This document shows positions 45,001 through 48,000 of a stretch of DNA of 64,000 nucleotides, piece after piece. Made by a program: the position numbers. The DNA is taken from positions 1-64,000 of the IMG/VR virus record IMGVR_UViG_2724679237_000005; one strand, given 5' to 3'. The DNA comes from a virus (taxonomy: Duplodnaviria; Heunggongvirae; Uroviricota; Caudoviricetes). How positions within the stretch are numbered: the first letter of the stretch is position 1; every line of letters starts with the position of its first letter.

Positions 45001-48000
45001 AAGACGACGAACCCAGCGCGTGCGTTTTAGATCCATATGTCATTTTTCTGTGATTGTTAGCCGAGGCAACGATAACCCACCAGGTGCGCCGAAGGTAGTA
45101 AATGCCTGTTTTAATTATTCACATATCCACAGGATAGATCCTAATAAAGAGATCCATAGATAGATCCTTGTATAGATCAAATAAGATCCCCGATCGCTGT
45201 AAGCCGCTCCACGACTGGTCTGAAGCCATGTTCATGTATGCTGCCAGCGGTAATTGATAGTCTGTCAACGGTTCGCCGTATGCTGCCAACTGTTTTTGGT
45301 ATGCTGCCAGCGGCAAATCAAGTATGCTGTCAGCGGTTGAATGACAAAGGTGTCCACATGTCCACAAAAAATAAAAAAGGTAAAAATAACAAAGAAGTAG
45401 AAGATAATCTCGACAACTTTGAAGAAGGTTCCCTTGAATTGTACACAGGGGAACTTGTCCCTAATAGCAACAATACAGTCCAACCAATTGCGTTGATGCG
45501 GCTGGGGTTGTTCGTGCCCACGCTCAAGGGGACAAAATACAGCAAGCGTAACAAGCCAAATGAGATCGATGCTTCAAAGGAGCTTGTTCAGCTCGAAGTA
45601 GCCCGTTCTGAAGGCTATTCCGATATCAAGATAACCGGTCCTCGTCTCGACATGGATCATGATTTCAAAACGTGGGTGGGCGTTGTGCGTTCGCTGGCAG
45701 AATACGGCGAACCTAACGGTCGTGTCGAGTTAAGCATCACGAAATTTGCGAAGTTTTGTGGCTATCCATCGTCACAGATCCGCAAAACACTCCGCGACCG
45801 GCTTACAAACAGTCTTTTGAAGATCATGCGTACAACTCTGTCTTTCCAGAGAACGTATGAAGAAAAGAACGTCGACGGCTCTAACAAGATCTCGCTTCTG
45901 ATGGTGCACCTCATCAATAGCGTGGACTACAACGAGCAGAAAGATACGGTGGTGTTCTATGCAGAACCGAAGCTGGCCGAACTATATCGCTTTGACCATA
46001 AGGTTCTTTTGCAGTTAAAGGTTATCAATAAGCTACCACGCAAAGAAACAGCACAGGCTCTGTACACCTTCATCGAAAGTCTTCCAACCAAGCCTGCGCC
46101 GGTATCGCTTGCTCGATTGCGTGCGCGACTCAATTTGAGTAGTAGGAATGTCAGCTCGCAGAATCAGACTATACGTAACGGCTTAAAAGCTCTCCAAGAT
46201 TTGGGCTATCTCGAATACAGCGAGATTAAGCGTGGGCGGTCGATCTATATCCAGATTCACAGCCGCAATCCAAAACTCAAAGTCGCACCGCCAAAACCTG
46301 AAGACATCGAACCCAAAAAACCAGATGAGAAAGCTGGGGAAATTGATGCCAAACAGAACATTATCAACAAGATAACCGAACTTTCGCAGAATTTGACGCC
46401 TGAAAATATCAAGATGATTGAGATCCTTTCCAATAGTCTCAAACTGCTTTGATATGCTGTCAGCGGTGAAATGTATGCTATCAGCGGCTATTTTTCTGAA
46501 AAGTATGCTGTGAACGGTTAAAGATATGCTACCAGCGGTATAGTGAGATGAACGTATGCTGTGAGCGGTAAATCATCTATCACCACTCAATGCTCTGTCA
46601 TACCTCCCCAGTGGTTACTAACCTCGAAGAGTGCATTCCATATAGGTTTGCGCTCACTAACATTCTATTGCTATTGCGCTGATTGCTTGTAGTGAAAGGC
46701 ATTTATTGCCTGCTGCTCCTGATAGAACGTATGCTGTCAGAGGTGTTTTATTGAGGAATTTTTGTTTGGATATGCTATCAGCGGTAATTAATGGCATATG
46801 TCAGACCTTCGTATGCTGCCAGCGGTAATTTTGTTCTGGTTATACCCATACCGGTACATATTATTCATGCAATGTCTTAAGTATGCTGTCAGCGGTAAAA
46901 AATCGAGTAAAGTATGCTGTGAGCGGTGAGATAGACTCTCGATATGCTATCAGCGGCAGTTGATTGTGTATGCTGTCAGCGGTGACGACTATGAAATATG
47001 ACTGCGGAACGAGCCGCAGTCAGTTTGCATTTAGTGTATTTTCTTCAACAGACCCCAAAGTGTTCCGGCTTTTGTAGTCAGTTTTCCTGTTTCTGGATCG
47101 TACATACGCCATTCACGCCGCTGGTGGACGATATACCCATCTTCACGTTCCAGACGCTCAAGAACGCCAGGCTGCTTGAAACCCTTAGCACGCCAGTATC
47201 CGCTTGTTTTCTCGATTTCCAGACCTGCTAGTGTTAATGCCATTATCCAACCTCCTTGCAGTCATCGAAAAGGTAGCTTTGCTGAGAAGCGTGAACGCCA
47301 TAGAAGCCCTTGTATTTGTTGTATACGAAGTGATCTTCTCCGACGCCGGTTAATTTGCCATTACGGTTTGTGAGATATGGGGATGACAATACTCGATCGT
47401 CACGCACAACATAGAACTGGTCGCCGCTGTCTACGACCATCGCGCCATATGGTGCTTTTATGACGTCGGTAAGAGCGCCATTCTTAACGTCGGCTACAGA
47501 CATTTCACACTGATAAACAGTGGTGTCGGCCACAACGATCGAAGAAAGGAACAACAGCGCGAATGGGATGGCCTTCATGCTGCCACCTCTTTGATTACAT
47601 CAAATGCTGAATTAAATACGAGCACGATAGCCAAAGCGTTTATGACTACGTCGTTCACCGGGGAAAAGACTTTACGAATGACACCAGTGAAAATGCTGTC
47701 GATGACAAAAGCTATTGACACGATGAGTAACAAGTATTCAATAAAAATCTTCATGATAGGTAGATACTAACTTATATAAATTTTACTGTAAACTCACTCA
47801 AAAGTGCTGATGCTTAAAATACGCTCAAGATGTGCGGCATCTTCATCACTGATTTGTTGAGTCTCTTCTACGTACCAACAGTTGCCGTTATGCCAACAAA
47901 CACCATCATCATCAACCATCACTGAATCAGCGTCATGACCTGTATATTCAACGAGAATACGCTGGATCAGCGCGTCAGTTTCCTCGTCGTTAAGGCCATT

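What the first reader, a model, noticed from the sequence alone, without database searches (positions are those of the whole stretch)
45237..46983. Iteron-type plasmid replicon: Rep gene flanked by about 16 direct 15-bp iterons
3-4 iterons upstream and about 12 downstream (two clusters) of a 364-aa Rep candidate, all in direct orientation with consensus (G/A)TATGCTGYCAGCGGT. This is the F/P1-style architecture (origin plus copy-control locus). It argues the element replicates as a plasmid in addition to having phage-type replication genes.
Basis: partly seen in the sequence, partly recalled or inferred. Interest (0 to 1): 0.55.

Follow-up and report, generated by a model that had tools for sequence, protein, structure and literature searches.

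The report
P1/RepFIB-type plasmid replicon of phage-plasmid
This is the ordinary, already catalogued plasmid-maintenance replicon (an initiator gene flanked by 17 binding-site repeats, built like the phage P1 and IncFIB replicons) of a common ~110-kb E. coli phage-plasmid of the SSU5/pECOH89 family.

Summary
Seventeen direct copies of TATGCTGYCAGCGGT lie in 45237-46983 (about 2.6 matches are expected by chance in the whole window). Five sit upstream of a 364-aa rep gene (45358-46452) and twelve downstream, in clusters of 5 and 7.

Rep is a homolog of P1 RepA (46% identity, E 4e-86), RepFIB RepA (~50%) and SSU5 RepA (48%). It passes Pfam Rep3_N, and its model matches RepE, pi and RctB. Upstream lie two DnaA boxes (45115-45131), six GATC sites in 59 bp and a GC block. 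This core aligns with P1 oriR at 69% identity.

Iterons keep their layout and drift in sequence together with Rep across relatives. rep has dN/dS of about 0.03.

The same DNA (about 99% identical) occurs in 119 of 5,426 complete E. coli genomes, always on plasmids. It matches p09EL50, whose RepA is reported identical to pECOH89's, so this is the PlasmidFinder type IncFIB(H89-PhagePlasmid).

- There are five upstream iterons, not 3-4.
- The DnaA boxes are upstream, not in the 46570-46728 spacer.
- The public 404-aa gene model starts inside iteron 1 and is too long.

Verdict: already known, low interest.

The parts
45115..45131 (+). Two abutting DnaA boxes, TTATTCACA (45115-45123) and ATATCCACA (45123-45131), at the outer edge of the origin
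   Evidence: Each is one mismatch from TTATCCACA, and the first fits TTWTNCACA. There are no other candidates outside rep in 44900-47300. They align with the annotated tandem DnaA site of P1 oriR.
45137..45195 (.). AT-rich cluster of six GATC (Dam) sites at 45137, 45151, 45163, 45175, 45185 and 45192, mostly as (A/T)AGATCC repeats. Presumed unwinding region and SeqA/Dam-sensitive region.
   Evidence: Six GATC in 59 bp against a background of 4.2 per kb. It is the densest 60-bp stretch in the window (next best 3); Poisson P is about 3e-7 per stretch. It aligns with the five annotated Dam sites of P1 oriR.
45196..45232 (.). Conserved GC-rich block (GCTGTAAGCCGCTCCACGACTGGTCTGAAG) between the GATC cluster and the iterons
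   Evidence: It aligns with P1 oriR, SSU5 and Klebsiella pJN2-26. The origin core 45108-45232 is 69% identical to P1, against 42% in the iteron zone.
45237..45337 (+). Origin iterons: five direct 15-bp repeats at 45237, 45258, 45279, 45300 and 45323, spaced 21/21/21/23 bp (the incC equivalent). The rep promoter is expected here.
   Evidence: The same five-copy, 21-bp phased set is present in relatives with 93%, 88%, 85% and 61% Rep identity. P1 has five incC iterons that contain PrepA.
45358..46452 (+). rep: a 364-aa iteron-binding replication initiator of the P1 RepA / RepFIB ('RepB family', Rep_3) family. The ribosome-binding site AAAGGTG is at 45346-45352.
   Evidence: Pfam Rep3_N. Identity is 46% to P1 RepA, 48% to SSU5 RepA and about 50% to RepFIB. 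The fold matches RepE, pi and RctB. dN/dS is about 0.03. The start is supported by the homolog alignment; the 404-aa model's extra residues are translated iterons.
46453..46569 (+). Downstream iteron cluster A: five direct iterons spaced 21/30/21/30 bp, starting one base after the stop codon (incA-like control locus, part 1)
   Evidence: The same five-copy cluster at the stop codon is present in the 93% and 88% relatives, and four copies in Klebsiella. P1 incA also starts at the repA stop.
46570..46729 (.). 160-bp spacer without iterons or DnaA boxes. It holds two short conserved blocks, 46607-46623 (CCCAGTGGTTACTAACC) and 46646-46661 (GTTTGCGCTCACTAAC), of unknown role.
   Evidence: The blocks are conserved in the 93% and 88% relatives although synonymous sites are near saturation. 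They are absent from the shorter spacers of the 85% and 78% relatives. No DnaA box, no Rfam match, no convincing promoter.
46730..46983 (+). Downstream iteron cluster B: seven direct iterons at 46730, 46771, 46812, 46882, 46913, 46943 and 46969 (incA-like control locus, part 2)
   Evidence: The copy number varies naturally: phage-plasmid PhiR41_1 lacks exactly three of them (87 bp, with end points in two identical iterons), and relatives have 5-7.
46999..47022 (.). GC-rich hairpin (9-bp stem) that resembles a terminator on both strands. It lies between the replicon and the convergent 70-aa gene (47031-47243, - strand).
   Evidence: Terminator-like site reported on both strands; inverted repeat I5.

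Best explanation
Region 45115-47022 is the low-copy plasmid-maintenance replicon of an SSU5-supergroup phage-plasmid of the pECOH89/p09EL50 type, which PlasmidFinder calls IncFIB(H89-PhagePlasmid). It is homologous in both protein and origin DNA to the P1 oriR-repA-incA and RepFIB replicons.

The mechanism below is inferred from those characterised homologs.
1. Monomers of the 364-aa Rep bind the five helically phased iterons at 45237-45337.
2. Together with host DnaA, bound at the two boxes at 45115-45131, they open the adjacent AT-rich, GATC-rich stretch (45137-45195) for loading of the host replisome.
3. The six GATC sites make firing sensitive to Dam methylation and to SeqA sequestration.
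4. Rep bound to the origin iterons probably also represses its own promoter.
5. The 12 downstream iterons (46453-46569 and 46730-46983) are not part of the origin. They titrate Rep and pair with the origin iterons through Rep ('handcuffing'). This holds copy number down and causes incompatibility with plasmids that carry the same iteron word.

Shown here: the repeats, their phasing, the homologies, the conservation and the exclusively plasmid location. Inferred: binding, origin opening, autorepression and handcuffing.
For: - The iterons are far above chance: 21 matches against 2.6 expected, 17 of them direct copies flanking rep.
- Rep passes Pfam Rep3_N.
- Rep is 46% identical to P1 RepA, E 4e-86, 48% to SSU5 RepA and about 50% to RepFIB RepA in thousands of IncF plasmids.
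- The AlphaFold model (core pLDDT above 80) best matches RctB domains 2-3, RepE (1REP, 2Z9O), pi (2NRA) and TrfA.
- P1's curated annotation shows the same order of parts: DnaA site, 5 Dam sites, 5 incC iterons with PrepA, repA, then incA iterons starting at the stop codon.
- The origin core is 69% identical to P1 oriR.
- The iteron layout is conserved, and the iteron word drifts with Rep identity: the same word at 93%, 88% and 85%, TAT(G/T)CT.TCA.CGGT at 78%, TATTCTGTAGGCGGT at 61%, and unrelated words at 54%, 48% and 46%.
- rep has dN/dS of about 0.03 with dS about 1.6, while the iterons stay unchanged.
- 119 of 5,426 complete E. coli genomes carry the replicon: 185 places on plasmids, none on chromosomes.
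- It is the only replicon typed on the two related records inspected (rep_cluster_488).
- The window's replicon DNA is 98.7% identical to p09EL50's (H28), and pECOH89 RepA is reported identical to p09EL50's (PMC3999498).
- Experiments on FIB replicons show that the upstream iterons go with the origin and that the downstream block alone exerts incompatibility, which supports handcuffing (PMC11983097).
- PhiR41_1, a complete genome deposited as a phage with E. coli K-12 MG1655 as host, lacks three cluster-B iterons. This fits a control array that can lose units.
Against: - No experiment on this particular replicon type was found in the searchable literature.
- The simple sigma-70 scan found no + strand promoter in or near the iterons, so autorepression through an iteron-embedded promoter is unverified.
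- All 12 downstream iterons are direct, whereas P1 incA, RepFIB and SSU5 contain inverted copies. The pairing geometry may therefore differ.
- Both DnaA boxes deviate by one base from the strict consensus.
- The specificity of the element's own Dam-family methylase is unknown.
Confidence: 0.9

Rival explanations
1. The replicon is a decaying relic. The element is maintained by its phage-type replication genes (dnaE, helicase and others) or by another origin, and the repeats no longer function.
For: The element carries many replication genes of its own. In F, the FIB replicon is known to be weakly expressed (PMC11983097).
Against: - rep is intact and under strong purifying selection, dN/dS about 0.03.
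- The iteron word and layout are conserved where synonymous sites are saturated.
- It is the only replicon typed on the two related plasmid records inspected.
- It is present in all near-identical plasmids found.
Confidence: 0.04
2. The downstream arrays, or cluster B alone, are not a copy-control locus. They are a second origin (for example for lytic replication) or a partition or centromere-like site, and the conserved spacer blocks bind a different protein.
For: - The array is in two parts, with a spacer of 150-220 bp retained in the relatives with 88-93% Rep identity and two conserved non-iteron blocks.
- SSU5 has a duplicated DnaA/GATC/iteron origin upstream of its rep, so origin duplications do occur in this family.
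Against: - There is no DnaA box, GATC cluster or AT-rich stretch next to either downstream cluster.
- The repeats are the same word as the origin iterons, so Rep is the expected ligand.
- Cluster B loses three units in PhiR41_1, and the spacer is short and lacks the blocks in the Klebsiella and Rosenbergiella relatives.
- ParB-domain genes lie about 43 kb away.
- In FIB replicons the downstream iterons act as the control and incompatibility element.
Confidence: 0.05
3. The repeats are prophage attachment sites or recombination sites that flank an inserted gene, as one public record annotates them.
For: The GenBank record of Klebsiella phage pJN2-26 labels two of these repeats attL and attR.
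Against: - There are 17 copies, not 2. They are phased at 21-31 bp and flank an initiator of the P1 RepA family in every relative.
- The element is never chromosomal.
- The att labels sit on two ordinary iterons, most likely picked because they are identical direct repeats.
Confidence: 0.01

Closest known systems
pECOH89 / p09EL50 replicon, PlasmidFinder type IncFIB(H89-PhagePlasmid), MOB-suite rep_cluster_488
   Same: Essentially the same sequence. The 2.1-kb region is 98.7% identical to p09EL50 (H28) and up to 99.4% identical to other ~100-110-kb E. coli, E. albertii and Shigella plasmids. pECOH89 RepA is reported identical to p09EL50 RepA (PMC3999498).
   Different: Only point differences, such as a C-to-A change in the iteron at 46730 that is not seen in p09EL50 or PhiR41_1. 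pECOH89 itself (HG530657) was not in the searchable collections, so the link runs through p09EL50.
Phage P1 plasmid replicon (oriR / incC - repA - incA)
   Same: Rep is homologous (46% over 278 aa). The order of parts is the same: tandem DnaA boxes, a GATC cluster, five ~21-bp phased iterons, rep, then a second iteron array starting at the stop codon. The origin core is 69% identical at the nucleotide level.
   Different: - The iteron word differs (P1 GATGTGTGCTGGAGGGAAA).
- P1 incA has 9 iterons in two orientations (3 + 6) and is contiguous; here there are 12, all direct, in two clusters.
- P1 RepA is 286 aa and lacks the ~30-aa N-terminal leader and the ~55-aa linker plus C-terminal helices found here.
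- P1 has parAB next to incA; here the ParB-domain genes are about 43 kb away.
RepFIB replicon of IncF plasmids (P307, F, pO157)
   Same: It is the closest functionally dissected relative of Rep (~50% identity). rep is flanked by upstream origin iterons and downstream control iterons, with a DnaA site and GATC-rich sequence upstream. The downstream block alone exerts incompatibility, and control is modelled as handcuffing (PMC11983097). It shares the variable linker and short C-terminal helices.
   Different: The iteron word differs (ATAAGCTGTGG-like). Most of its downstream copies are inverted. RepFIB rep starts at an unusual CTG; here an ATG with a good ribosome-binding site is used.
SSU5 / pHCM2 / pLF82 (phage Cyrano) replicons of the same phage-plasmid supergroup
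   Same: The position in the genome is the same. The flanking genes are 86% and 96% identical in protein. The family, the origin core and the overall layout are the same.
   Different: Rep is only 48% identical and the iteron word is unrelated ((A/T)CCACTGTAGAGAG). SSU5 has a duplicated origin and inverted downstream copies. The replicon module is therefore a mosaic cassette, presumably of a different incompatibility specificity.
Mini-F oriS (ori2) - repE - incC
   Same: Same logic and same protein fold. The model matches the RepE-iteron complex 1REP and the RepE dimer 2Z9O. Rep belongs to the same Pfam family, Rep_3.
   Different: The relation in sequence is distant: phmmer finds no PDB hit at E up to 1, and structural alignments show 13-15% identity.

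Membership tests
P1 RepA / RepFIB-type iteron replicon (Rep_3 superfamily) | Initiator protein homologous to P1 RepA / RepFIB RepA | tested here: met
   BLASTP against P1 RepA gives 46% over 278 aa, E 4e-86. tblastn gives about 50% to RepFIB and 48% to SSU5 RepA. Pfam Rep3_N scores 37.5 bits against a cutoff of 22.4.
P1 RepA / RepFIB-type iteron replicon (Rep_3 superfamily) | Tandem winged-helix (WH1-WH2) initiator fold | tested here: met
   The AlphaFold2 model from a 36-sequence alignment has mean pLDDT 72, with the core (residues 70-305) mostly 80-93. The Foldseek top hits are RctB domains 2-3 (E 3e-8), RepE 2Z9O and 1REP, a WH1 domain (6H24), pi 2NRA and TrfA. This rests on a prediction, not a solved structure.
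P1 RepA / RepFIB-type iteron replicon (Rep_3 superfamily) | Helically phased direct iterons immediately upstream of rep | tested here: met
   Five copies at 21/21/21/23-bp spacing, 45237-45337. Conserved in relatives.
P1 RepA / RepFIB-type iteron replicon (Rep_3 superfamily) | DnaA box(es) and an AT-rich, GATC-rich unwinding region distal to the iterons | tested here: met
   Two boxes at 45115-45131, each one mismatch from consensus. Six GATC in 59 bp, unique in the window. The stretch aligns with the annotated P1 DnaA and Dam sites.
P1 RepA / RepFIB-type iteron replicon (Rep_3 superfamily) | Second iteron array downstream of rep (incA / incC-type control locus) | tested here: met
   Twelve copies starting one base after the stop codon. 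They differ from P1 and RepFIB in being all direct and split into 5 + 7.
P1 RepA / RepFIB-type iteron replicon (Rep_3 superfamily) | rep promoter embedded in the origin iterons (autorepression) | tested here: inconclusive
   The consensus scan found no + strand sigma-70-like site in 44950-47300. By eye there are only weak candidates, such as TTGATA at 45254 followed 19 nt later by TATGCT at 45279.
P1 RepA / RepFIB-type iteron replicon (Rep_3 superfamily) | Rep binds the iterons; the fragment replicates autonomously; the iterons exert incompatibility | not testable with these tools
   Indirect support only: the replicon is found exclusively on plasmids in 119 complete genomes, it is the only typed replicon on the two related records inspected, Rep and iterons vary together, and experiments exist on FIB homologs.
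IncFIB(H89-PhagePlasmid) / pECOH89-p09EL50 replicon type | rep (near-)identical to the pECOH89 reference | tested here: met
   The match is indirect. The 2.1-kb region is 98.7% identical to p09EL50 NC_018651 (H28). The window Rep differs from the p09EL50 Rep at about 0.3% of residues. The pECOH89 paper states that its RepA is identical to p09EL50's and 48% identical to pLF82's. That figure matches the 47.9% found here for phage Cyrano, which is taken to be pLF82 only because the record lengths are equal. HG530657 itself is not in the collections.
SSU5-supergroup phage-plasmid | Backbone synteny and homology with SSU5 around the replicon; deposited relatives that are phages | tested here: met
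   Flanking proteins are 86% and 96% identical to SSU5_070 and SSU5_068, in the same order. Relatives with 99% identical replicons are deposited as Escherichia phages PhiR41_1 and CMS-2020a. The window is collinear at about 97% with a 109.6-kb plasmid of this group. Virion genes were not examined in this window.

The most novel reading that the evidence does not exclude
The two short non-iteron blocks in the spacer between the downstream iteron clusters (46607-46623 and 46646-46661, both containing YYACTAAC) stay conserved where synonymous sites are saturated. They could be binding sites for a further, unidentified regulator, from the host or from the phage. Such a regulator might couple plasmid copy control to the phage's lysogeny-lysis state. 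That would make the split, all-direct 5 + 7 control locus a functional variant of the P1 incA design.
Probability: 0.07. Interest if true: 0.4.

Novelty: already known. Interest (0 to 1): 0.12.

Why it matters
The region identifies the window as part of a pECOH89/p09EL50-type SSU5-like phage-plasmid and locates its maintenance origin. This group is of practical interest because its members carry blaCTX-M-15 and other cargo, and the type occurs in about 2% of complete E. coli genomes.

The base-level map could be useful for:
- designing incompatibility-based curing cassettes; in FIB replicons the downstream iterons alone suffice (PMC11983097)
- correcting the over-long 404-aa public gene models
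- avoiding mislabelling of iterons as att sites

The map comprises the DnaA boxes, the Dam cluster, 5 origin iterons and 5 + 7 control iterons. It adds no new principle.

Tried and rejected
- Sequence search of Rep against PDB chains: no hit at E up to 1. The fold had to be reached through a predicted model.
- NCBIfam: no model matched Rep.
- Rfam scan of 44900-47300 at E up to 1: nothing, so there is no known antisense or control RNA.
- Folding the spacer as RNA: z = -2.6 on the + strand and -1.4 on the - strand. This is unconvincing, and the spacer is not conserved in length.
- Promoter scan: no + strand candidate for rep.
- The 19-nt inverted match between the iteron 2/3 junction and the rep coding sequence (45270-45288 and 45695-45713): rejected as a regulatory site, because the Klebsiella relative has two synonymous changes in one arm and a different spacer in the other.
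- The word TYACTAAC is not enriched in the window: 3 found, 3.2 expected.
- Fetching pECOH89 (HG530657): not in the collections.
- Literature search for SSU5 + phage-plasmid + iterons: no paper. PhiR41_1 is mentioned only in passing in unrelated papers.
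Full report
**Observation.** The pattern TATGCTGYCAGCGGT, with up to three mismatches, matches 21 times in the 64-kb window. Shuffles give 2.6 +/- 1.7, with a maximum of 9. Seventeen matches are + strand copies between 45237 and 46983.
- Upstream of the ORF there are five copies: 45237, 45258 (degenerate), 45279, 45300 and 45323, spaced 21/21/21/23 bp.
- Downstream cluster A has five copies (46453-46569, spaced 21/30/21/30 bp). The first begins one base after the stop codon.
- Downstream cluster B has seven copies (46730-46983).
- All 17 copies are direct, and positions 1-6, 10 and 14 of the 15-mer are invariant or nearly so.
- The ORF runs from ATG 45358 to TGA 46452 and encodes 364 aa. 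AAAGGTG lies five bases upstream of the ATG.

**Start codon.** Public PGAP-style models start at ATG 45238, inside iteron 1, and give 404 aa. In a 36-sequence alignment most homologs begin at the position of 45358. The extra 40 residues read MLSAV..MLPTV..MLSAV, which is the iteron translated. The 364-aa model, also used in the PhiR41_1 record, is therefore preferred.

**The protein.**
- It passes the Pfam Rep3_N (WH1) cutoff, 37.5 bits against 22.4.
- It is 46% identical to P1 RepA over 278 residues, E 4e-86 (tblastn 43.5%).
- It is 48% identical to SSU5 RepA and about 50% identical to the RepFIB initiator found in thousands of IncF plasmids.
- A sequence search of PDB chains finds nothing.
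- An AlphaFold2 model built on the alignment (mean pLDDT 72, core 80-93) best matches RctB domains 2-3, RepE (2Z9O, 1REP), a WH1 domain, pi (2NRA) and TrfA. All of these are iteron-binding initiators made of tandem winged-helix domains.
- rep is under strong purifying selection. dN/dS is about 0.03 against a Salmonella relative, where dS is about 1.6.

**The origin.** Upstream of the five iterons lie, in order:
- two abutting DnaA boxes, TTATTCACA and ATATCCACA, at 45115-45131
- six GATC sites within 59 bp (45137-45195), against a background of 4.2 per kb; this is the densest such stretch in the window, with Poisson P about 3e-7
- a GC-rich block (45196-45232)

The curated P1 annotation lists the same parts in the same order: a DnaA site, five Dam sites, five incC iterons containing PrepA, repA, and nine incA iterons that start at the stop codon. 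The stretch 45108-45232 aligns with P1 oriR at 69% identity and with SSU5 at 69%. The iteron zone is only 31-42% identical. The part that host factors bind is thus conserved, and the Rep-specific part has diverged.

**Rep and iterons vary together.**

| Rep identity to window | Relative | Iteron word and layout |
|---|---|---|
| 93%, 88% | Salmonella, L014 | Same word; five upstream, five at the stop codon, a 150-220-bp spacer, then 5-7 more; all direct |
| 85% | Klebsiella pJN2-26 | Same word; 5 upstream, 4 + 4 downstream |
| 78% | Rosenbergiella | TAT(G/T)CT(G/A)TCA(G/A)CGGT |
| 61% | L011, same SSU5-like gene context | TATTCTGTAGGCGGT |
| 54% | L012 | Unrelated word |
| 48% | SSU5 | Unrelated word |
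| 46% | P1 | Unrelated word |

The iteron word is unchanged between the window and relatives whose synonymous sites are near saturation. The repeats are therefore under constraint.

**Where the sequence comes from.** The 2.1-kb region is 98.7-99.4% identical to about 120 plasmids of roughly 60-130 kb from E. coli, E. albertii and Shigella, including p09EL50 of E. coli O104:H4. It is also 98.6-98.9% identical to records deposited as Escherichia phages PhiR41_1 and CMS-2020a.
- In RefSeq complete E. coli genomes it occurs in 119 of 5,426 genomes. All 185 places are on plasmids and none is on a chromosome.
- MOB-suite types only this replicon (rep_cluster_488) on the two related records inspected.
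- The pECOH89 paper states that its RepA is identical to p09EL50's and 48% identical to pLF82's (PMC3999498). Phage Cyrano's RepA is 47.9% identical to the window's Rep. I take Cyrano to be pLF82 only because the record lengths are equal.
- The replicon is therefore the type PlasmidFinder calls IncFIB(H89-PhagePlasmid), which 25 open papers report in surveillance data.
- The element belongs to the SSU5 supergroup of phage-plasmids (PMC7969092).
- The genes flanking the replicon are 86% and 96% identical to those of SSU5, while Rep is 48% identical and the iterons differ. The replicon is thus a mosaic cassette at a fixed backbone position.
- The window is collinear at about 97% with a 109.6-kb relative. 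It carries nrdAB, thyA, dfrA, rnhA, a Dam-family methylase, a helicase and dnaE.

**Mechanism (inferred from characterised homologs).**
1. Rep monomers bind the five phased origin iterons.
2. DnaA binds the two boxes, and the GATC-rich, AT-rich stretch opens.
3. Dam methylation and SeqA sequestration modulate firing, as established for P1 oriR (my knowledge of the P1 literature; the Dam and DnaA sites are annotated).
4. The downstream iterons titrate Rep and handcuff the origin. This limits copy number and determines incompatibility.

For FIB replicons, experiments show that the upstream iterons go with the origin and that the downstream block alone displaces a resident plasmid (PMC11983097). 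PhiR41_1, deposited as a complete phage genome with E. coli K-12 MG1655 as host, lacks exactly three cluster-B iterons. The 87-bp deletion has its end points in two identical iterons. This fits a control array that can lose units.

**Differences from P1, RepFIB and SSU5.**
- All twelve downstream iterons are direct, while the others include inverted copies.
- The downstream array is split by a spacer.
- Rep has a disordered N-terminal leader of about 30 aa. It also has a linker plus two C-terminal helices that RepFIB shares and P1 RepA lacks.

**What remains open.**
- No + strand promoter-like site was found for rep, so autorepression through an iteron-embedded promoter is unverified.
- Two short blocks in the spacer (46607-46623 and 46646-46661) are conserved in the 88-93% relatives but absent from the 85% and 78% relatives. 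Nothing explains them: there is no Rfam match, no enrichment of the shared word, and the RNA folding signal is weak.
- The 19-nt inverted match between the iteron 2/3 junction and the rep coding region is not conserved and is treated as coincidence.

**Verdict.** The feature is an already catalogued replicon type that follows a textbook design. I found no published base-level map of its iterons in the searchable literature, but such a map adds detail rather than a new principle. Interest is low.

Noticed in passing
window 53336-57648 (- strand): dnaE (Pol III alpha) is split into two ORFs. The N-terminal part is 787 aa with PHP, Pol3-alpha and finger domains (55285-57648). The C-terminal part is 389 aa with HHH_6 (53336-54505). 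A free-standing 244-aa HNH_3 + NUMOD3 homing-endonuclease-like gene (54502-55236) sits between them. The relative NZ_CP027369.1 has one intact 1172-aa dnaE, and about 1.1 kb of the window replaces 304 bp there.
   Followed up: partly
window 29410-30003 (- strand): The element encodes its own Dam-family N6-adenine methyltransferase (Pfam PF05869, E 2.5e-38). This is notable because its plasmid origin holds six GATC sites. The enzyme's specificity was not determined.
   Followed up: partly
window 18258-21893 (- strand), within the non-collinear stretch 17994-23653: A 1211-aa invasin/intimin-like inverse autotransporter (IAT_beta, Big_1 and Invasin_D3 repeats) lies in a segment of about 5.6 kb that does not align with the related plasmid NZ_CP027369.1. 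That plasmid has S24 peptidase, toprim and other genes there. It is probably a cargo or adhesin replacement.
   Followed up: no
window 14479-17770: Host-like housekeeping genes are carried on the element: methionyl-tRNA synthetase (720 aa) and an ApbC/Mrp-type P-loop iron-sulfur carrier (366 aa).
   Followed up: no
window 1195-3223 (- strand) and 62212-63315 (- strand): Two adjacent ParB-N-domain proteins lie next to a P-loop/ABC-type ATPase. A tyrosine recombinase (Phage_integrase) lies near the other end of the window. These are candidate partition and multimer-resolution functions, and they sit far from the replicon, unlike in P1.
   Followed up: no
L006 (Klebsiella phage pJN2-26, MZ779062) 1878-1897 and 3148-3167: The GenBank record labels two 20-bp repeats attR and attL. 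They are ordinary iterons of this replicon on either side of rep, so this is an annotation artefact.
   Followed up: yes
window 45238-45357; public proteins such as WP_024180339: The 404-aa 'RepB family' gene models start at an ATG inside iteron 1. Their first 40 residues (MLPAV..MLPTV..MLPAA) are translated iterons. The real start is most likely ATG 45358.
   Followed up: yes
L002 (phage PhiR41_1) versus window 46882-46968: PhiR41_1 lacks exactly 87 bp, which is three iterons. The deletion end points lie in the identical iterons at 46882 and 46969, consistent with recombination between the repeats.
   Followed up: yes
window 46730-46744: The first iteron of cluster B reads TATGCTGTCAGAGGT in the window. 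p09EL50 and PhiR41_1 have the consensus ...CAGCGGT. This is a private point change at a nearly invariant iteron position.
   Followed up: no
window 46607-46623 and 46646-46661: Two conserved non-iteron blocks (CCCAGTGGTTACTAACC and GTTTGCGCTCACTAAC) lie in the spacer between the downstream iteron clusters. They are shared with the 93% and 88% relatives and absent from the 85% and 78% relatives. Their function is unknown.
   Followed up: partly
window 45270-45288 and 45695-45713: A 19-nt inverted match (18 of 19 complementary) joins the iteron 2/3 junction and the rep coding sequence. It is not conserved in the Klebsiella relative and is probably coincidental.
   Followed up: yes
L005 (SSU5, JQ965645) 1780-2000 and 2155-2400: SSU5 has a tandem duplication, about 375 bp apart, of the whole DnaA-box/GATC/iteron origin upstream of its repA. 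The second copy has partly lost its GATC sites.
   Followed up: no
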